From Octopus vulgaris (lineage: Eukaryota): DNA of 64,000 bases. The notes beneath the pieces were generated by a model. It saw nothing but the letters and a program-made list of their open reading frames with translations, was not told the origin of the DNA and did no database searches. Shown here piece after piece: positions 28,415-52,828 of the stretch; position 1 is the first letter of the stretch; every line of letters starts with the position of its first letter. A program made the translations under genes and the position numbers. The DNA is taken from the NCBI GenBank assembly GCA_951406725.2, contig OX597822.1, positions 31,806,001-31,870,000 of the forward strand, in the 5' to 3' direction.

Positions 28415-30205
28415 AGGCAGTGAGCTGGCATTTCATCTGTCTATACGTTCTGAGCTCAAATTCCGAATGGTTCGAACTATGCCTTTTGTACTTTCGGGTC
28501 GGTAAAGGCTGAAGTTGATATGATCAACGTACTCCGCCTCACAAATTACTGGACTTGTGTCAAAATTAGAAATCGATACTATTCATCTCTTTAAGGCGGC
28601 GAGTTGGCAGAAACGTTAGTACGCCGGGCGAAATGCTTAGCGGTATTTCGTATGCCGTTACGTGCTGAGTTCAAATTCCGCCGAGGTCGACATTGCTTTT
28701 CATCCTTTCGGGGTCGATTAAATAAGTACTAGTTACGCACTGGGGTCGATATAATCGACTTAATCCGTTTATCTCTCCTTGATTGTCCCCTCTGTGTGTA
28801 GCCTCTTGTGGGTAGTAAAGAAATAGGTATTTCGTCTGCCGCTACGTTCTGAGTTCAAATTCCGCCGAGGTCGATTTTGCATTTTATCCTTTCGGGGTCG
28901 ATTAAATAAGTACCAGTTACGCACTGGGGTCGATATAATCGACTTAATCCGTTTGTCTGTCCTTGTTTGCCTCCCCCCACCTCTGTGTTTAGCCCCTTTT
29001 GGGCAGTAAAGAAATAGGTATTTCGTCCATCTTTACGTTCTGATTTCAAATTCCGCCGAGGTCGACTCTGCCTTTCATCATTTCGGGGACGATGAATTAG
29101 TACCAGTTGTGTATTGGGGTCGATTTAATCGACTGCCCCCTCCTCCAAAATTTCGAGCCCTATGCCTAGAGGAAAAAGGAATATTATTCATCAATTTTAA
29201 GTCGAAGAGTCTGGCATATTCATTTGCTTGGCAGCATTTCTTCTAGCTTTACATGCTGAATTCAACCGTTGCCACGATCGATTTTGATTTTCATCCTTTC
29301 AGGGTCAATAAAACAAGTACCAGTTCAGCACTCGCGTTGATATACTTGACTAACCCACTCCAACTAAAACCGCTGCCCTTGTATTGGGTGAGCAAGAAAA
29401 TCGTTAGCACGCCAGCCAAAATGCTTTGCGGCATTTCTATCTTCTTTACGTCCTCAGCACAAATTCGGTCGAGGTCGACTTTGCTTTTCATCATTTTGGA
29501 GTCAGGGGAAATAAGTGCTAGTTCATAATTAATTTAATCGACTCACCCATCCTCCAAAATAGCAGCACGTTTCCCAGAATTTGAAACTAATATTGTCCAT
29601 CATTTTCCGCCAGAATCTTAAACATGCCCGACAAAATACTTAGTAACATTTTTCTATCTTTATCATATCATCATCATCATGGTCGAGACAATGGAATTTA
29701 CTATGTTCCACCAGACTTCATACCCATCATAGCATTACGGAGGTCCTGTTGCTGGATGCCTGTATCCCTGGAGATTACATCAGGGTAGGAGAGTGTGCGC
29801 TCTCTGGTATCACGAGTAGATGGCTTCCAGAGAAGAGTAGAAATTACCTCGTTTTCAGCTCGACAACAATGTCCAGCAAACTGGACTCTTCTACCTTTCA
29901 CAAGAGATGATACAGGAGGTAGTTTCCCATATATTTGTACTTTGGTTGGATGACGCTTCCACGAGAGATTTTGAGCTCTCATGAGGAGGTGAGTGTAAGT
30001 TCCATCCAACCGCCTCTCAAACTTTTTTGGTAACGTCCAGGTTTCTGAGCCACATAGTAGAACTGGTTCTTCTATCTTTATATTCTGAGTTCAAATTCCG
30101 CCGAGGTCGACTTTCGAGATTAGATAAAATCAACACTGGTTGATCACTAGGGTTAATGTAATCGACTCATCATCAAACCCGAAATTACTGGCCTTGTGTG
30201 AAAAT
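28415..30205 (+). mobile_element. Cluster of plus-strand SINE A copies including a tandem trimer (28594-29180)
   Basis: Units joined by AAAGAAATA|GGTATTTCGTC; further degenerate copies at 28415, 29225-29590 and 29610-30205. Confidence 0.85.
29664..30069 (-). mobile_element. RTE-type LINE 3' fragment inserted in a SINE A
   Basis: Peptide VLLCGSETWTL..RRLDGTYT..RRVQFAGHC; (TGA)n tail; 12-bp TSD TTCTATCTTTAT (29652-29663 / 30070-30081). Confidence 0.85.
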
Positions 30206-39310: not shown

Positions 39311-40668
39311 ATGGCTAGTACCTTAATATATCAAGAAATCAGATCATGGTACAATATAAGAACAAATTCATCCAAACCGATGAAAAGAAGAAGCATCAGC
39401 AATTAGAAGTATAGAAACGACACATGTAGTAAAAACACTATCGTTACAGCATGGTTATAAATATGTTATTAAAACACTCATAAAACAGATTACAGTATGT
39501 ATGACACCTAACTAAAATCTCATAGCTGAAATATATTACGAAAACGCGGGAATTAAAAAATCCTGTTTCTCAACAAAAAAGCTATAAACTATCCAAGCAG
39601 ACAACGTAGCTCATACAACGAATGTTTAGTATGCTGAGGTAAGAAGATTACACTTTCAGCTTGGCACATATTATGTGGGTGTATGTATATGTACGCGTTT
39701 GTGAGCGCTCTGTTACTTATAAATATATCTAACAAAAGACATTTTCTTTTAACCGAAGACACATCATTGACTGGTTAGTAAACAAAAGTTGAAGACCGTA
39801 TATAGGCTGGAAGCTTGATAGGTAGATAAGTAAAAAGCTAGGTGAGGTGAAGTTGGCTATAGTGATAGGAATAAACGGGGCGATGCTGTGTAAAAGTAGA
39901 AATTCTATCCTCATCACGACCTACAATGAATACCATGACCATCACTCTTTAATCACTTATACAGTTTCTACTATCACCCCACCTATCTCTTCGTTCCTTC
40001 TTTCTACCTAAACTGGGTAAACTGCCACCGATGTGTCTTCAAACGAAATAGTATGCCTTTTTCTGGTTTAAGTGTCTTTAATAAACCATATTAATGCTCA
40101 CTCCCAGGTATTTGAGTTCTTTAGTGTTAAGTGGCTTAATCAATTTCATCTGGACAGGTACTCTCAAGAATTATTTACAAAACCACATACGTGCGCACAT
40201 ATACATTATTATGCATAACATAGGCTAAATCAGAACTGAAATATATCTAAACATTACAGAATCACTATAAATTAAACATGGATGTATAAAGAGAAATTCT
40301 TATTTTGCACGTTAATAGCACAGGAACAATATACTTATGCCCTTATTTGCCAAACGTAAAGGTTTACATGCACGTATTGAGTGGAATCATTGATGTAACC
40401 ATAACTTTCTGGTGATCTAATGTGCTAGTTTTCTTTATTTGCATTTATTTTTTAATATATAGTTCTATCTTATGAAGCAAAGGCTGAATATTAATGCAAA
40501 CATACGAGCATAATTTCTTCTACTCAAAAATTCTTATGACATGAAAAACGGTGCGAAACGGCCGTAATCCAAAGAATATCAAGTGATAAAGCAAATATAT
40601 TCACCTCTCATACACCCGGACTTTTCATGATTTGTATGCTTACATATATATATATATATATACACATA

Positions 40669-40732
<64 letters not shown>

Positions 40733-40899
40733 ATATACACACACATATATGTATGTATATGCATAATTGCACATATATATATTATTTATATTATATATAT
40801 ATATACACACACTCGTACATAAATATATATAGGTAGAAATAAGAGCAAACCCTCATATATGTGTGTGTGTGAATATGTTTGTCAGAGACCATTCTAGTA

Positions 40900-41110
40900 T
40901 TGATTTCAAATTGTAGCACAAGGCCAGCAATTCAGGGGTGGTGTAAGTCGATTACATCGACCCAATTGTTCAGCTGGTACTTTATCGATCCACGAAAGGA
41001 TGAAAGGCAAAGCTGACCCCGGTGGAATTTGAACTCAGAGAGTAAAGACGGGCAAAAATGCTTCTAAGCATGTCACCCGGTGTGCTAACGATTCTGCCCG
41101 ATCTCCGCCT
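40900..41110 (-). mobile_element. SINE family A
   Basis: Reverse-complement head, core and tail. Confidence 0.85.
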
Positions 41111-41127
41111 GAATGATCATTCTAATA

Positions 41128-41524
41128 TCTTTATATATAAAAGTGAAGTTGTGTGTCTGTCTCCTACGATTTAGATTCCTAACTACTCCCACATTTTGCG
41201 GTGCAGTGTAATCAAAAGCGGGTATCTTATAGTCGTGATTCATATCGAGCCCTTCTGGGTATTAGCGCGCGTCTACGATGAGTCTACGATTTTTAAAATA
41301 ATTTACCATCATTTTTTTCCATTTTAATGCATTTTTTCGCTATTATATAAGGGAAGTAATTCTCTAAAAATGTCTACGATGAGTCAACGATTTAAAAAAA
41401 ATTTACCATCATTTTTTTTCCATTTTTAATGCATTTTTTTGCTATTTTTTGGCTATAACTCTCTAAAAATGCTTATATAGTTATTTCCCTTACAAACCCG
41501 AGCAACGCCGGGTGATACTGCTAG
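41128..41524 (+). mobile_element. Non-autonomous Helitron with ~100-bp internal duplication
   Basis: A|TC start, hairpin CCCGAGCAACGCCGGG, CTAG|T end; direct repeat 41271-41370 / 41372-41470. Confidence 0.88.
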
Positions 41525-42545
41525 TTTATGATAAAGATTACGTTATCGCGGCTTCAGCATTCCAATAGTATTATCCAATATGGCGCAGAAGAAACAGTAA
41601 CACTACGAATAAAATACACTAAGTAGACTAACCTATATTCCTTGCGTTTACTCAACTATGTTTCACGTTTCCAGGAAACATAATATAATTATTAGTTTGA
41701 CTCCCTTAACTTGCAGACTCCCTAGACTTCTATTAACACTAAAAACCTCCAAGGTAAGATTTGGTTATATATTAATCATCATAAATAAATAGCAGTTTCA
41801 AAATCTGAAAAGCTCGTCGTTTGATTCTTAATAACATCCGATAAATCTTTCTTTTAAGTTAATAACATGATAAACAAAAACTATAGTCCGAATGTGAGGT
41901 AGGCATGAGTTATTTTGGACACGTATGAAGAAGTTTGGGAGAAACCAAGCGTTTTAACAATCCATGTAATATCGTGTATTGTGTGTCTGTGAAAGAAATC
42001 TGCAGTACCTTTCAGTTTCCTTTCAACAATAATCAGAGGGATATTTCCTGTATTAAGAAATAAAATATTCATGTCTGGAGAAATAAAATCAGTTGAAACC
42101 ACGGAACAATTCTTTCTTTCTTGTATTTAATGATCGTCTATAAATTTGTTCTCTTCGTGCACAGCAAGGCTTCTATTAGCGATAATGTTTTCAAATCATT
42201 CCGATTAGTGAAAGCAGTAATGCTCAGAGAAGTTTGTGTTTCTCAAATTGTAATCTGTAATTTCTAATTACATGGAGCCTGAACTATTTATCTTCGCCTA
42301 GGAGATGTAGTTATTTGACATTTCGTAAATACCAATATATATTGAAATTTCATTAGCCCTGTGGTGTAGTCATGGTCTTGAAAAGAAGAGTGCTGAAAAC
42401 TGTAATAAGGTAAACTGAAAAACAGCTTTCTGAAACAGATGTCGTTTGATTAGAAGACTACACATCAAGATTGTTTTGCAAATGGCCGTTCCTATAAGAC
42501 GTCAGCTTACAAGCTAAAATATCAAAGTTTCGTATTATATATAAT

Positions 42546-42755
42546 GGTTTCAAATTTTGACACAAAGCCAGAAATTTCGGGAAAGCGTCTAAGTCGATTA
42601 CATCGATCCTAGTGCTCAAATGGTACTTATTTTATCGATCCTGAAAGTATGAAAGGCAAAGTCGACCTTGGTGGAATTTCAGCTCAGAATGTATAAGCAG
42701 ACGAAATGTCTCTAATCATTTTGTCCCGCATGCTAACGATTCCACCAGCTCGCAC
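42546..42755 (-). mobile_element. SINE family A
   Basis: Reverse-complement head, core and tail. Confidence 0.85.
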
Positions 42756-42816
<61 letters not shown>

Positions 42817-42880
42817 TTATTTATATATATATACATAAATAATATATAAACATATGCATATATACATACATGTACATACC

Positions 42881-42935
<55 letters not shown>

Positions 42936-42941
<6 letters not shown>

Positions 42942-43817
42942 GAAATATTAAAATTACTAAGTCTCTCTAAAAGAGAACAACGGCAGCGTTCCCGGAAAAT
43001 ATTAGTTATCGCCATACTAATATGGCATTCTTATAAAAATAAGAATAAAGCTGACTGCTTATTAGCTCCATGAGGCCATCGCCTTAAGTTAGCTATTTGA
43101 TACACAAACTGTATCCATATAACCTTTGAACAAGGAGGTCAGTCGCTCCACACTACTTGCCGTTGTTCTCTTTTAGAGAGACTTAGTAATTTTAATATTT
43201 CTATTATTGAAAACAAGTGGGTGTATTCCACCGAAGCTAGGTAAATAAAACCTTTGAACAGAGATTGTCGAAGCGACACCTACTGGTTTGGAAGAAACGC
43301 GTCTGTAGCTGCCGGCCAAGGAGCGACTGACCTCCTTGTTCAAGGTTATATGGATACAGTTTGTGTATCAAATAAACTTAAGGCGATGGCCTCATGGAGC
43401 TAATAAGCGGTCAGCTTTATTCTTTTTTTATAAGAATGCCATATTAGTATGCGATAACTATTTTCCGGGAACGCTGCCGTTGTTCTCTTTTAGAGAGACT
43501 TAGTAATTTTAATATTTCTATTATTGAAAACAAGTGGATGTATTCCACCGAAGCTAGGTAAATAAAACCTTTGAACAGAGATTGTCGGAAGCGACACCTA
43601 CTGGTTTGGCTACGCTGCATTGAAAAGGGGCAATACCCCGAAACGCGTCTGTAGCTGCCGGCCAAGTAGTGTGGAGCGACTGACCTCCCTTGTTCAAAGG
43701 TTATATGGATACAGTTTGTGTATCAAATAGCTAACTTAAGGCGATGGCCTCATGGAGCTAATAAGCGGTCAGCTTTATTCTTATTTTTATAAGAATGCCA
43801 TATTAGTATGGCGATAA

Positions 43818-43819
<2 letters not shown>
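42936..43819 (+). mobile_element. Penelope-like/retrozyme-like element: ~360-bp unit in tandem plus an inverted partial copy
   Basis: Direct copies start at 43159 and 43476; 42936-43158 is an inverted permuted copy; (TA)n on both flanks; no ORF. Confidence 0.8.
43614..43655 (+). ncRNA. Minimal type I hammerhead ribozyme motif, U3-A8 variant
   Basis: GCTGCA-TTGAAAA-GGGG CAATA CCCC-GAAA-CGCG-TC-TGTAGC; predicted cleavage after C43649. Confidence 0.75.
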
Positions 43820-43888
<69 letters not shown>

Positions 43889-44243
43889 ATATATACATGC
43901 ATGTATGGGTACAGGACATAAAAAAAAACACAATGAGAAACAAAAACATAAAAACAAAAACATGGAAACGAACTTTTTACGAAACAACGAAAAAACTGAG
44001 AAACGAGACATACAACATAAAGAATATTCCCCTTCTTTAGTTGTCCCTGTTTCATCTACTCCACGTACGAGGGTAAGGACAAGACGCGACTTCATGGAAA
44101 CAGTCCTTCCCGCAAAGCAAATTAAATAAGATTTGGGATTTTTTGCGGAGGGTGAAAGTGGTAACAAGAACAGGACAGTGAGAACAAAACAGTAAAAACA
44201 AACAGTGAGGGATGTTAAGCCAAGACTACAGAAAAATTATTAT

Positions 44244-44710
44244 TGGTAGACGGAAACTGAAAGAAGCCCGTCGTGTATATGTATATATATATATGCATGT
44301 GTGTGTTTGTGTGTTTGTGTGTCTGAGTTTGTCCCCCTAGCGTTGCTTGACAACCGATGCTGGTTACTTAGCGTTTCGGCAAAAGAGACTGATAGAATAA
44401 GTACTGGGCTTACAAAAGAATAAGTTCCGGGGTCGAGCTGCTCGATTAAAGGCAGTGCTGCAACATGGCCGCAGTCAAATGACTGAAGCCAGTAAAAGAG
44501 TAACTATTATATATATATATATATATATTGAATTTTGTCTATGCCGGTGTATACCAACCTTCAAACAACCGTGTTTTATTGTGAAGAGGCGAGTGACTTA
44601 ATTCTGAGTGTGTTAGGCTCATGACTGTAAGATTATGGATTCACTTCTTAGATTAGGCGATACCCTGTGTCTTTGAGCAAGGTACTTTATTTCACGTTGC
44701 TCCAGTCCAG
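44244..44710 (+). mobile_element. SINE B 3' part (44244-44502) and SINE C 5' part (44583-44710)
   Basis: TGGTAGACGGAAACTGAAAGAAGCCCGTCG..GTAAAAGAGTA; TTTGAGCAAGGTACTTTATTTCACGTTGCTCCAGT. Confidence 0.78.
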
Positions 44711-45382
44711 GAAAACTTAGAGTGGACGCCTAGGCCTGATGCTGCATTCCCCACTTCCAGTATTTTCAAACGCTGTGTATCACGCTGGTCAAGAGGAATC
44801 GGCTACTTAGACACTTAACCAGTTAGCGAAAGCATTTACTCGTTTGCGAGTGACGACTGTTGTGATTTTTGCACCTGCTTTCTCTCAATGGAAAAAAGCT
44901 AATTATTTCATTAACGAATGCTTCGTATGCATTCAGTGTCGTTTTCAATAATTTGACGTAATCATGAAATACTTAATCACCCTAGCTGCGCACAGGCCGT
45001 GTTGCTAATGTAAAGCTACAGTGGCAGCGTAAAAATTAACATATCATTAGTCTCTCTTACTGATATCTAATATTCATGCAGGAATGTATTAGGGAGAGAG
45101 AGAGATAATGAGAGAAAGCGAGAGACAGATTCTGAGATGGCTTGAAACAGTCTGATGTCACCGGAGAATGCATCAATAACATACGCTCTTATGGAATTCC
45201 CTAAACTATATTTATTCATCACACAATATTGTTATCAGTTGATTTAATTTGTATTAAACAATCAAAAAGCAAACAGACATCACGTGAACTTCTATATAAT
45301 TGATGAACGCCTTAGTAACATCTGCTACATAACTCAGACGTATATGCATGCTTAAGTTTACTTAATTGAGTAATATTGAATT

Positions 45383-45743
45383 TATTACCTCCGCCATCGC
45401 TAAGACGAAGGTATTGTTTTCAGTCGTGTTTGTTTGTTTGACTGTGGACAAGATATCTCAAGAACTGCTGGATGGATTCGGATGAAACCTTCAGGGATGT
45501 TTGGCTTCGTGACTGGCACGAACGGATTAGATTTGGAGATCGATTCGGTACAGGACAAGAATTCTGGAATTTTTTCCTGTTCTTTGTTTTTTTTCAATTT
45601 ATTCTTGAGAGCGGTCGAGTTCATTATTAGTATTCTCGTTTGTGAGAGCAGCCGAGTTTCTTTCAGATATTCTCATTTTAAAAATCATCTCTGGTCATTG
45701 GTGTTGTCTTGGCGGAGGTTTGCACTTCCTGAGTACTCTTGTT
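45383..45743 (+). mobile_element. Helentron-associated non-autonomous element (HINE/DINE-1-like)
   Basis: Subterminal inverted repeats ACCTCCGCCA / TGGCGGAGGT, (GTTT)n tract near the 5' end, short 3' hairpin, T-rich flanks. Confidence 0.7.
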
Positions 45744-45861
45744 GTCTATTCATTTTCGTTGCCAACTTTGCTTACAGGAAGAAATTTAGGAAAATTCCTT
45801 ATATTAAAATTCTCACATTGAAATACATAAAAAAAGACGGTAGTAGCTATACAAGCCCCCA

Positions 45862-45920
<59 letters not shown>

Positions 45921-45922
45921 AA

Positions 45923-45974
<52 letters not shown>

Positions 45975-46028
45975 CATATAAATATATATATATATATATA
46001 TCTGTGTGTGTATGTGTATGTTCATATA

Positions 46029-46260
46029 TATTTCATTACTGCTCACAAGGGGCTAAACATAGAGAGGACAAACAAGGACAGACAAACGGATTTAGTCGAT
46101 TACATCGACCCCAGTGCGAAACCGGTACTTTATTTATTGACCCCGAAAGGATGAAAGGCAAAGTCGACCTCGGCGGAATTTGAACTCAGAACGTAACGCA
46201 GACGAAATACCGCTAAGCTTTTCTCCCGTCGCGCTAACTTTTCTGACCGCTCGCCGCCTT
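46029..46260 (-). mobile_element. SINE family A, full-length
   Basis: Near-consensus reverse complement. Confidence 0.9.
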
Positions 46261-46267
46261 ATGTGTT

Positions 46268-46305
<38 letters not shown>

Positions 46306-46464
46306 GAGTGTATGTGTTCATGTGTATATGTATCTATCTATATTATATATATATATATGTATGTATGAATGTATATGTTCATGTATGCAGGTATGTACCT
46401 ATCTATCTAGGTATAGATAAATAGATAATACATACATACACACATACATACATACATACATACA

Positions 46465-46533
<69 letters not shown>

Positions 46534-47417
46534 AACACATACATAGATATTCATACATATACACACACTCACATACATATATATATATATACACACACGC
46601 GATAGAATATTCTGACGAAGCTGAAATTCGTTGAGATAATGAACCAGTGTTTTGAAGCGCTGTAAATTTATGCAATAAATAGACAAAGGAAATCATTTAT
46701 AAAACACGGAATTTCCACGAATTCTGTGTCTTAATAATATTAACTTCAGAAGAGTAATTACTAAACCATCCGGCCTAAATGTCTGATAATATTATCCACA
46801 ACTAATGCATTTAAATATCGAATGACTCAGTTCATTTATTTGTAATTTGCAATCGACAGTACAAGCTTAAAAATTGTTAACATATACTAACATAATTGAC
46901 AAAGTGTCGCCGTCGCTCTCACTTTCTCTCTTCGTCTGCTTCTTATATATTTTTTTTGGTTTTCTCTCTATCTATTTCTGTCTGTCTCCGTCTCTCTCTC
47001 TCTCTCAGTTTCGTCGCCCCACGAACATGATCAGCAAAGGCGATTTGCTGTTATGATACTTCTAGTATAATTATATATTTCGCTGAAACGCTGACAGGTC
47101 ATTTAGTTACCTAAACGCTGCGTAAAGATAACACTAAGATCATCAATTTGTATATAAATTATATGTGCACGTACATGTTTGTGTATTCACGAGCGCCTGT
47201 GTGTGTATGTGTGTGTAGGTATGTGTGCTTGTGTGACTATGTGAGTGAGTGTGTGCATGCGCACGTTTGTAAATAATTTTATGCATGTTTTAATATTTAA
47301 ATAATGACAAAGAGCAAAGTGTATTTTGTTTAATTAATTCTCCTAAATACCGTTTGCCGCAAGTAAATAATTATAAACCTGAATATTTGTCATCGACTAA
47401 CTTTCCTCGGGGATCCA

Positions 47418-49509: not shown

Positions 49510-50019
49510 TTTCAAACTTTGGTACATAGCCGGCAATTTCGTGGAAGGGATTAAGTCGATTACATCGAATTGATCCCTCTTTTTTTTATCACCCTCAAAG
49601 GATATTTCTTTACTACCCACAAGGGGTTAAACACAGAGAGGACAAACAAGGACAGACAAACGGATCAAGTCGATTAAGTCGACCCCAGTGCGTAACTGGT
49701 ACTTATTTAATCGACCCCGAAAGGATAAAAGTCAAAGTCGACCGCGGCGGAATTTGAAATCAGAACGTAACGGCAGAAGAGATACCTATTTCTCTATTAC
49801 CCACAAGGGGCTAAACATAGAGGGGACACACAAGGACAGACATAGGTATTAAGTCGATTACATCGACCCCAGTGCGTAACTGGTATTCATTTAATCGACC
49901 CCGAAAGGATGAAAAGCAAATTCGATCTCGGCGGAATTTGAACCCAGAACGTAGCGGCAGACGAAATACTGCTAAGCATTTCGCCCGGCTTGCTAACCTT
50001 TCTGCCAGCTCGCCGCCTT
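49510..50019 (-). mobile_element. SINE A tandem multimer
   Basis: Same unit order and a similar junction (AGAAATA|GGTATCTC on the minus strand) as 28594-29180. Confidence 0.85.
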
Positions 50020-51046: not shown

Positions 51047-52828
51047 TTAAACCGAAAATGTTAATGAATGAGCAATTGCCTTTAGGAAAGCTAATTTATC
51101 GTTACTCTCATAAGATTGCACAAGGTCTTTTATCCGCGCATCTATTGACTGGTCTTTTCTCTTTTTCCGTGGATTGACTCCTCTTTGGGCATGAAATATT
51201 TTGATCTGTGTAAGAGTTCCTTCTTTTCGAAGAGCATTAATAAACTTCCAGATGTTTGGGTGCTTGCTTGTTATTGATGTGTGCAATGCTGAGTTTGTCC
51301 GAGGCAATTCCTGTATTACTCGACAGTAAACATGCCAAAAATTTATAGGGTACAAGGGTTCTTCTCGTCTGTCACGTCTTCCTCTCTTTGATCCAATGTA
51401 CGTCAGCTCGAAATAGCTTATAGAATCTATTGTAACTGATTCGTCCTCAAAGAGATCTTCATAATTATCAATTACTTCTTCTGGTGGTAAAAATGCAACT
51501 GCACGGAACATTTTTATTTTAGTGGTAAAAGAACCATCAGCACTATATTGAACTTTATATCCGAGTTACTCTTTTACTCTTTTACTTGCTTCAGTCATTT
51601 GACTGCGGCCATTCTGGAGCACCGCCTTTTAGTCGAGGAAATCGACCCCAGGACTTATTCTTTGTGAACCTTGTACTTATTCTATCGGTCTTTTTTGCCG
51701 AACAGCTAAGTAACGGGGGCGTAAACACACCAGCATCCGTTGTCATGTGATGTTGGGGGGACAAATGCATACACATACACGCACACATATATATATACAA
51801 TACATATACATATATACGACGGGCTTCTTTCAATTTCCGTCTACCAAATCCACTCACAAGGCTTTGGTCGACCCGAGGCTATAGTAGAAGACACTTGTCC
51901 AAGGTGCCATGCAGTGGGACTGAACCCGGAACCATGTGGTCGGTAAGCAAGCTACTTACCACACAGCCACTCCTTGGCATAATTTCCTAGAAACTGTTTG
52001 GCATAATTTCCTAGAAAAAGGAAATAAACAACCTACGATGGTGCTTCCAGTAAATTTATTGTCACAGTTGTTACGAATTGCTCGTTCAAAGTCAATCAAT
52101 ACTTTTTTTTTTTTTAATTTCAAGAAAGGTCTTGTCATATGTTGCTTGTGTTTTGTCCGGCAGTAGAATGAAAGCTCGAGCAATTATGACAGCGTGAATG
52201 GTGGAAAGCTAATACCATACATCTGCTGATGATTTGAATGCGCTATCTATTCCTAAAAATGAGCTGTTTTCCAATTGTTGAAGATCATCGTTAGAGGCAA
52301 AGATTAAAATCCTCTTTTCATCATTACTGCCTGTGTCGCATTGCAGGGACAAATTACTGCCTTACAAGTATTTAAAAGGATCAGCCAATTGAAATCCAGT
52401 TCGATGAAGAGGCAACGGAGGAGCACCAAAAGCTTTCTTTCGCCAGTTTGTAATACTTCTAGAAACTGTTTGCAACAGTGGGAATTGATATTTCCCTTTC
52501 TCACTAATATTATTCGTAGCTTCAGAAATGATCACTCGAGTACTTGTTTCAACTCCATCTTGCAACGTTTTATTACTGCTGAAGTGGCGAATCGTGCTTC
52601 TACAGCATTTGATGTTGGTTCGTGATCATGACTATTGATTGTTGAAATAATTATAGGTTCACCTGGTTTATTCTCTGTATGAACACGAGCACGAGATGTA
52701 TAGCGAATCTCACAGCGCCACAGTTTCCTTATCTCATCGGAACTAAACTCATGAAAGTCTTAAACATAATTAAATTCATCAATCAATTTGTCTTGGTATT
52801 TCACACTTTTAAAATATTTTGCAGCCAT
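51047..52828 (-). pseudogene. Disrupted FLYWCH-MULE transposase
   Basis: WRCE..RARVHT..HDH zinc-finger-like N-terminus, DSAFK, IDFERAI, GCLF, YFELTYIG, PRTN, HPNIWKFI; stops, frameshifts and a SINE insertion. Confidence 0.85.
51568..51973 (-). mobile_element. SINE family B inserted in the MULE transposase
   Basis: Full-length near-consensus copy with (TAAAAGAG)n tail. Confidence 0.9.

What the first reader, a model, noticed from the sequence alone, without database searches (positions are those of the whole stretch)
42936..43819. Retrozyme/Penelope-like ~360-nt tandem unit with a compensatory U3-A8 hammerhead ribozyme
Seen: a non-coding unit occurs as ~2 direct copies plus an inverted permuted partial copy, all inside (TA)n. 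The second copy folds into a complete minimal type I HHR: 6-bp stem I, GGGG/CCCC stem II, palindromic ACGCGU stem III and a GUC site. Its core reads UUGAAAA instead of CUGANGA, so the C3-G8 pair is replaced by U3-A8. The first copy lacks the core and stem II. Established: minimal HHRs with palindromic stem III occur in Penelope-like pLTRs and animal tandem retrozymes and cleave as dimers; tandem and 5'-inverted structures are typical of Penelope-like elements. Inference: covariation suggests selected activity, and a tandem transcript from intact family members could be processed to ~360-nt monomers or circular RNA. Standard CUGANGA searches would miss it.
Basis: partly seen in the sequence, partly recalled or inferred. 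Interest (0 to 1): 0.85.

Follow-up and report, generated by a model that had tools for sequence, protein, structure and literature searches.

The report
U3-A8 hammerhead retrozyme with paired ends
This is one copy of a 363-base non-coding repeat with about 2,000 ribozyme-bearing copies in this animal genome, carrying a predicted self-cutting hammerhead ribozyme with a rare but published core swap, and its insertions end at two fixed points that are paired one-of-each in 76 of 77 inverted copies, which likely records how a borrowed Penelope-type reverse transcriptase pastes it into TA repeats.

Summary
Observation confirmed. The locus is one insertion of a young, dispersed family with a 363-nt unit: 792 exact hammerhead matches, 2,084 across subfamilies. 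U3-A8 is fixed (99 of 100 listed; N7 varies freely), while a distant sister family in the same genome has C3-G8 and another palindromic stem III; 9 of 17 pairs show double changes. The fold is canonical type I, not minimal. U3-A8 is already published (PMC3088659, PMC4209133), as is the idea that retrozymes are non-autonomous Penelope-like elements (PLEs). What goes further: insertions have two fixed 3' ends 63 nt apart (the PLE 'tail'), mostly in (TA)n, and inverted insertions pair one end of each kind in 76 of 77 classifiable loci. Both arms share one haplotype (340 of 349 sites), and in 14 of 53 loci neither arm contains the other, which points to two primings on one template source. Intact Neptune-type PLEs exist here, one with a U3-A8 hammerhead, but none tested shares sequence with the unit. 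Cleavage, circles and expression are untested. The window's deletion-rich middle copy is an outlier. The scan noted a similar ribozyme-free architecture in another genome (e1-7881736).

The parts
42758..42935 (.). left (TA)n-rich target microsatellite
   Evidence: TRF; sequence
42936..43159 (-). inverted arm, unit 194-363 then 1-55; its 3' end (42936) is fixed end B
   Evidence: blastn; end B at unit 49-56 in 50 arm ends of 60 loci, 34 exactly at 55
42936..42998 (-). 63-nt 'tail' between fixed ends A and B (unit 356-363 and 1-55), with predicted stem-loops ending at B
   Evidence: hairpins are predicted, kept in outline in sister family F
43158..43159 (.). head-to-head junction of the two arms' 5' ends, 2-nt overlap
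   Evidence: overlaps of 2-4 nt in 43 of 72 junctions
43158..43469 (+). 5'-truncated, deletion-rich unit copy (unit 6-363) lacking the ribozyme core and stem II
   Evidence: 10 deletion events, the only such unit of 130
43470..43824 (+). intact unit copy (unit 1-355) ending at fixed end A
   Evidence: 100% identical to 11 other genomic copies over 350 nt; end A at unit 348-360 in 48 arm ends, 28 exactly at 355
43565..43701 (+). predicted long hairpin whose tip is the hammerhead (extended helix I)
   Evidence: RNAalifold on 14 subfamily copies, 41 pairs, 5 with double changes; circular fold
43614..43655 (+). type I hammerhead: stem I 43614-19/43650-55, core UUGAAAA 43620-26 (U3 43620, A8 43625), stem II 43627-30/43636-39 with CAAUA loop, palindrome ACGCGU 43643-48, predicted cut after C43649
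   Evidence: sequence
43797..43812 (+). predicted hairpin GCCAUA-UUAG-UAUGGC just upstream of end A
   Evidence: fold; a homologous GCCA/UGGC hairpin precedes the (TA)n junction in family F
43820..43878 (.). right (TA)n target microsatellite
   Evidence: TRF

Best explanation
This is a dispersed, non-coding 363-nt tandem retroelement (a non-LTR retrozyme) that is likely copied into (TA)n by the reverse transcriptase-endonuclease of an autonomous Penelope-like element, with a hammerhead predicted to cut tandem transcripts as a dimer. Shown: family size and youth, fixed U3-A8 core, covarying stems, two fixed 3' ends A and B 63 nt apart, TA flanks, one-A-one-B pairing in inverted copies, one haplotype per insertion. 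Inferred (about 0.9): both strands of (TA)n are cut, one DNA end primes cDNA at site B and the other at site A, the cDNAs grow toward the RNA's 5' end, stop at variable points and join head-to-head by 2-4-nt microhomology; if only one priming succeeds a single arm results. Inferred (about 0.85): the ribozyme is active, needing the ACGCGU palindrome of a neighbouring copy to form helix III. Inferred (about 0.5): cut monomers are closed into circles and rolling-circle reverse transcription yields the 1-5.5-unit arrays. Partner probably a Neptune-type PLE; not identified.
For: Family. Core kept across subfamilies 79-90% alike with only N7 free; sister family F has C3-G8 and ACUAGU; 9 of 17 pairs double-changed, slid controls 0-1. 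Ends: 85 of 98 A/B ends are followed by alternating TA; 76 AB, 1 BB, 0 AA, 11 with one end unclassified among 133 loci; 39 of 39 in the set not chosen by its ends (p = 4e-12 against 50%). Arms agree at 340 of 349 diagnostic sites against 0.47 heterozygosity between loci. Neither arm contains the other in 14 of 53. Ten locus-private changes are in all copies of their array, e.g. four in all 5 units of L079 and G207T in both arms of L121. Intact Neptune-type ORFs of 781, 777+ and 884 aa, ending in (TA)n; the 781-aa family carries a UUGAUAA hammerhead with palindromic ACAUGU. Literature: tail = span between two RT start sites, both strands cut and extended (PMC11167929); tail often at one end only (PMC8557442); circles from 350-390-nt mollusc retrozymes (PMC7229834).
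Against: No cleavage, RNA or circle data: one search gave contigs only, RNA status guessed. 5' ends show no spike at the first base after the cut: of about 75 junction-type hits among 100 listed (read by eye), 181 has 7, against 10 at 183, about 10 at 189 and 9 at 194. Some arrays have unit-specific changes shared by both arms (L093, L128, L133), which a monomer circle cannot give, and L125 looks like a DNA-level unit duplication. The in-register test is null overall (4 of 93 against 5 of 159). No autonomous family tested shares sequence with the unit. In PMC11167929 uncleaved RNA was the dominant substrate and start sites did not differ between strands; in the 2026 preprint 8 of 9 tested retrozyme dimers did not cleave. 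The tail is 63 nt against the 30-40 nt reported. The three F rows are one evolutionary event.
Confidence: 0.65

Rival explanations
1. Same PLE-type mobilisation, but the template is the uncleaved linear tandem transcript; the ribozyme cuts rarely or only trims ends, no circles are used, and arrays are renewed by template jumps or DNA-level duplication.
For: Unit-specific changes shared by both arms in L093, L128, L133 need a multi-unit template; L125 fits a local duplication. No 5'-end spike at the cut site. Hammerhead mutants did not affect insertion by the anole PLE in vitro (PMC11167929).
Against: 5' truncation shortens arrays at each round, yet 47 of 60 loci have an arm over one unit and 5 over three, and arrays are homogeneous for private changes. 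L020 (C,T,C,T) and L012 (T,C,T) alternate with period two, as a circular dimer would give (two cases only). The core and palindrome are kept by covariation.
Confidence: 0.25
2. The inverted arm arises from one priming event: the cDNA folds back, copies itself, and is then resolved at the other fixed site.
For: In 39 of 53 AB loci one arm is contained in the other; this would explain the shared haplotype; many junctions sit at the palindromic TTCGAA near unit 224. Self-priming was proposed for rotifer Penelope (PMC3846280).
Against: In 14 of 53 loci neither arm is contained in the other, and single-arm loci end at either A or B (5 and 9 of 60), so each site starts insertions alone.
Confidence: 0.06
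3. A DNA-level repeat (MITE-, Helitron- or satellite-like) spread with its inverted structure ready-made; the hammerhead is a passenger.
For: Inverted termini, microsatellite targets, no ORF (longest ATG frame 77 aa, antisense).
Against: Junctions differ from locus to locus, 5' ends are variable and 3' ends fixed, as in target-primed reverse transcription; covariation is specific to the RNA fold.
Confidence: 0.04

Closest known systems
Metazoan non-LTR retrozymes (Cervera and de la Pena 2020, PMC7229834; Li, Clavereau and Pollet 2026 preprint 10.64898/2026.07.22.740005)
   Same: Non-coding tandem unit of 150-450 bp, GC under 50% (41% here), one canonical type I hammerhead per unit with short palindromic helix III, self-paired predicted circle, co-occurrence with PLEs.
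   Different: U3-A8 core; dispersed arrays of 1-5.5 units in (TA)n with two fixed ends and paired inversions, features not described in the sections read; circles and cleavage not shown here; no pLTR homology to a PLE found.
Endonuclease-bearing Penelope-like elements, Neptune clade; anole Poseidon PAc mechanism (PMC11167929, PMC8557442, PMC3846280)
   Same: Partial tandems, 5' truncation, head-to-head inverted copy, optional tail at one end, two start sites downstream of the hammerhead, AT-rich or (TA)n targets.
   Different: No ORF; tail 63 nt rather than 30-40; near-strict one-A-one-B pairing is counted here, whereas PAc in vitro showed no strand difference in start site.
U3-A8 hammerheads (Perreault 2011, PMC3088659; Schistosoma Cercyon min-HHRs, PMC4209133)
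   Same: Same compensatory 3-8 pair; reported active in vitro according to PMC3088659.
   Different: Here it sits in a canonical-architecture retrozyme, is fixed in about 2,000 copies, and has a homologous C3-G8 sister family in the same genome.
L1 twin priming (recalled; seen only in search listing)
   Same: Two target ends prime two cDNAs joined head-to-head with microhomology.
   Different: In L1 the second primer anneals at variable internal sites; here both starts are fixed and the arms overlap in template coordinates.

Membership tests
Type I hammerhead ribozyme | Core C3/U3-U4-G5-A6-N7-G8/A8-A9, G12-A13-A14, A15.1-U16.1, H17 | tested here: met
   UUGAAAA...GAAA...UC; 3-8 pair covaries U-A/C-G between families, N7 takes all four bases
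Type I hammerhead ribozyme | Helices I, II and III with compensatory changes | tested here: met
   93.4% of cells paired, 9 of 17 pairs double-changed, slid controls 0-1 (rows are related, F counts as one event); helix III only as short or intermolecular palindrome
Type I hammerhead ribozyme | Self-cleavage after N17 | not testable with these tools
   no assay; genomic 5'-end proxy inconclusive
Type I hammerhead ribozyme | Loop 1-loop 2 tertiary contact | tested here: inconclusive
   CUAC before stem I and GCAA in loop II are kept between families A-E and F (one D variant); likeness to the Schistosoma loops is recalled, not tested
Non-LTR retrozyme | 150-450-bp non-coding tandem unit, one type I hammerhead per unit, no LTR-type features | tested here: met
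   363-nt period, arms up to about 2,000 nt, no long ORF, no tRNA gene in 4 loci scanned
Non-LTR retrozyme | Expressed as monomeric linear and circular RNA | tested here: inconclusive
   only contigs from runs guessed to be RNA; contigs cannot show ends, strand or circles
Non-autonomous Penelope-like element | Partial tandems, 5' truncation, head-to-head inverted copy, optional tail | tested here: met
Non-autonomous Penelope-like element | Autonomous RT-GIY-YIG PLE present and recently active in the genome | tested here: met
   many near-identical copies with intact ORFs
Non-autonomous Penelope-like element | Sequence shared with the pLTR of a specific autonomous partner | tested here: inconclusive
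   none with the three intact families or 30 GIY-YIG loci examined; only 150 of 6,136 GIY-YIG candidates were scored and 30 fetched
PLE minimal hammerhead (min-HHR, PMC4209133) | Long helix II (7-8 bp), short helix I, extra base after A9, no helix III | tested here: not met
   helix II 4 bp, helix I 6 bp plus extension, no extra base, 6-nt palindrome

The most novel reading that the evidence does not exclude
The near-strict one-A-one-B rule is the genomic footprint of an asymmetric Penelope RT-endonuclease dimer that primes both broken DNA ends on one RNA template, a circle or a pair of units held together through the ribozyme's palindrome, each subunit locked to its own start site. The PLE tail and inverted pLTR would then be one coupled double-priming event, and this 363-nt RNA a minimal substrate for studying it.
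Probability: 0.4. Interest if true: 0.75.

Novelty: new variant of a known kind. Interest (0 to 1): 0.52.

Why it matters
How Penelope-like elements make their tandem and inverted insertions, and whether retrozymes are really moved by them, are stated open questions (PMC8557442, PMC11167929, 2026 preprint). This family gives hundreds of near-identical, short, fully assembled insertions whose ends can be counted, and they show Penelope signatures directly, where published support rests on co-occurrence and pLTR similarity. It also shows that searches for CUGANGA miss a 2,000-copy ribozyme family, and offers a natural C3-G8/U3-A8 pair of homologous ribozymes for side-by-side assay. The core swap alone is not new.

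Tried and rejected
Partner hunt: two hammerheads 5.3 kb apart on C7 were a segmental duplication, not a PLE; the RT fragment beside L160 led to an intact 884-aa Neptune-type family without similarity to the unit; two more families (777+ and 781 aa) likewise; tight patterns for other U3-A8 or C3-G8 hammerheads with ACGCGU found old families and point variants only. A full-length copy of the 781-aa family was not obtained, so its 5' end and second terminus are unexamined. 5'-end pile-up at the cut site: suggested by three loci, not borne out by 100 genome-wide hits. In-register sharing of variants between arms: null overall. 5' ends cluster at unit 218-232 (28 of 144), at the base of the long hairpin, but a TTCGAA palindrome there offers a microhomology explanation, so it is not counted as proof of RNA structure. 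Rfam: only microsatellite-driven noise in 40000-47000 and nothing on the ribozyme. ARAGORN: no tRNA in 4 loci. Sequencing runs: no RNA holder listed on record; contigs of 4 runs cover the unit but say nothing on expression. Paper searches showed no description of this family or of the end-pairing rule; subscription journals, Repbase and Dfam were not searchable, and the supplement of PMC7229834, which may list related elements, could not be read.

Full report
Observation. The region is as described. Taking window 43470 as unit position 1, the + strand carries a 5'-truncated, deletion-rich copy (43158-43469) and an intact copy (43470-43824); the - strand carries an arm from unit 194 through 363 to 55 (43159 down to 42936). 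The two arms meet head-to-head with a 2-nt overlap and the whole lies in (TA)n. The intact copy folds as a type I hammerhead at the tip of a long hairpin, with predicted cleavage after C43649. Rfam does not detect it.

The family. The unit is 363 nt. A DNA search gave 1,206 candidates; the 40 scored held many copies 99-100% identical. An exact 32-mer over the ribozyme occurs 792 times, reversed control 0; a looser 20-mer covering related subfamilies occurs 2,084 times, control 0. Sixty loci from contigs C1 and C2, chosen only by the ribozyme 32-mer, are mostly 93-100% identical to the window unit and fall into 17 haplotypes among 74 fully covered loci of the pooled set. Subfamilies 79-90% alike were found through. 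The window's middle copy has 10 deletion events, where no other of 130 near-full units has more than 3; it is local damage or an error and does not represent the family.

The ribozyme. Of the first 100 matches to a pattern that allowed C or U at position 3 and A or G at position 8, 99 are U3-A8, one is C3-A8 and none has G8, while N7 takes all four bases. No family copy was among the 16 CUGANGA hits. A profile of 39 diverse segments found a distant sister family, F, at E 1e-15 to 3e-7; it has CUGAUGA and the palindrome ACUAGU in place of ACGCGU (5 of 7 fetched loci show both exactly, 2 carry a point change). On an alignment of five U3-A8 subfamily copies and three F copies, 93.4% of cells pair and 9 of 17 pairs change on both sides, against 0-1 when partners are slid. 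The rows are related and F counts as one event, so this is support by quality of pattern, not a probability. By the definitions in PMC4209133 (parts 1-2 of 4 read) the fold is canonical, not minimal. U3-A8 is known: natural and active according to PMC3088659 (passages), and about 1,300 hits in Schistosoma PLE repeats (PMC4209133).

Insertion anatomy. In ribozyme sense, arms have variable 5' ends and two fixed 3' ends: A near unit 355 and B near unit 55, 63 nt further on. In the 60 loci, 85 of 98 such ends are followed by alternating TA. Inverted loci pair the two kinds: 39 AB, 0 AA, 0 BB and 5 with one end unclassified among the 60; 16 AB and 1 BB among 22 best hits; 9 AB among 26 loci of a diverged subfamily; 12 AB among 25 further loci. 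The best-hit and subfamily sets were selected by parts of the unit and may be biased; the first set was not chosen by its ends. One B+B locus with a 118-nt spacer (L254) and one A+B locus with a 26-nt spacer (L158) fell outside the junction rule and are not in these counts. Single-arm loci end at A or at B (5 and 9 of 60). Either arm may be longer (A in 24, B in 15). Junction overlaps are 2-4 nt in 43 of 72. The two arms share a haplotype at 340 of 349 diagnostic comparisons, against 0.47 heterozygosity between loci, so they come from one RNA or one source locus. In 14 of 53 AB loci neither arm could be a copy of the other, which argues for two primings.

Template. Units within a locus are homogeneous (18 of 614 site-locus pairs discordant) and 10 of 148 locus-private substitutions are in every copy of their array, which fits repeated copying of a short template, as on a circle. 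Two arrays alternate with period two. Against a pure monomer circle, three loci have unit-specific changes shared by both arms and one looks like a DNA-level duplication; the aggregate in-register test is null. 5' ends do not pile up at the cut site (read by eye). The runs laid were contigs with guessed RNA status. Circle use is therefore open.

Partner. The genome holds at least three young PLE families with RT, a CxxxxCxxC linker and GIY-YIG domain, read here as Neptune type from the description in PMC8557442. All abut (TA)n, and the 781-aa family has a UUGAUAA hammerhead with a palindromic helix III. None shares significant sequence with the unit; only a small share of candidates was examined.

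Mechanism. Most likely, tandem transcripts are cut by ribozyme dimers to monomers that may circularise (as shown for other retrozymes, PMC7229834, parts 2-4 of 6 read). A PLE protein binds the stem-loops downstream of the ribozyme, cuts both strands of (TA)n, and primes one end at B and the other at A; the cDNAs stop at variable points and join by microhomology. This extends the in vitro findings for the anole element (PMC11167929, parts 1-2 of 4 read): two internal start sites define the tail, both strands are cut and extended, and a dimer is predicted, although that study saw no strand difference in start site and no need for ribozyme cleavage. That the tail is often on one end only is known qualitatively (PMC8557442, PMC3846280, passages).

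Novelty. The class, the core swap and the proposed PLE link are published (also the 2026 preprint, parts 1-3 of 5 read, which covers vertebrates, three insects and a coral). A 2026 octopus repeat annotation does not mention hammerheads or retrozymes in its main text (PMC13282606, term search). My searches found no description of this family or a count of end pairing; Repbase, Dfam and one supplement were out of reach. PMC6155905 and PMC12602865 were seen as passages only. An earlier AI note from this scan describes a ribozyme-free 334-bp tandem element with PLE-type ends in another genome; not checked. Verdict: a real, new variant of a known kind; ordinary as a ribozyme, useful as a natural record of Penelope-type integration. 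Interest 0.52.

Noticed in passing
L270-L276, L069:876-1081, L261:679-889: Older sister family F of about the same unit size (2,839 first-look candidates, best copies 88-95% alike) with canonical CUGAUGA core, ACUAGU palindrome and homologous end hairpins; several copies beside (TA)n.
   Followed up: partly
L216, L221, L228 (G000 C16, C13): Young Neptune-type PLE with an intact 781-aa ORF, a U3-A8 minimal-type hammerhead near its 3' end, ending in (TA)n.
   Followed up: partly
L200-L206 (G000 C10:97.80-97.83 Mb, C16, C3): Very young Neptune-type PLE (884-1008-aa frames) in 6.2-kb tandems with a long (CA)-rich non-coding part and a hammerhead-like motif reading CCGACGA.
   Followed up: partly
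L208:21-3000: Third Neptune-type family (777+ aa) with a hammerhead-like motif and AGUACU palindrome, directly followed by (TA)n and another PLE.
   Followed up: partly
L138, L140, L150, L164, L038; L036, L041, L146, L148, L152, L154: At least two old repeat families whose hammerhead cores occur as both CUGANGA and UUGANAA, suggesting repeated switching of the 3-8 pair in this genome.
   Followed up: no
L020, L012: Single-base variants alternate unit by unit (period two) along arrays, as a dimeric circular template would give; two cases only.
   Followed up: partly
L254: Symmetric insertion with both arms ending at B and a 118-nt spacer; an exception to the A-B rule that fell outside the junction criterion.
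   Followed up: no
window 40941-41103, 42587-42751, 46089-46252; 184-nt tandems at 28642-29134 and 49603-49969: Several copies of an abundant SINE-like repeat, twice in tandem form.
   Followed up: no
window 51047-51565 (-): 172-aa open frame that resembles a DNA transposase fragment (impression, not searched).
   Followed up: no
runs of coded organisms A, B, C, E: The family is present in contigs of four coded organisms; loose ends show TA repeats after both ends A and B in several of them.
   Followed up: partly
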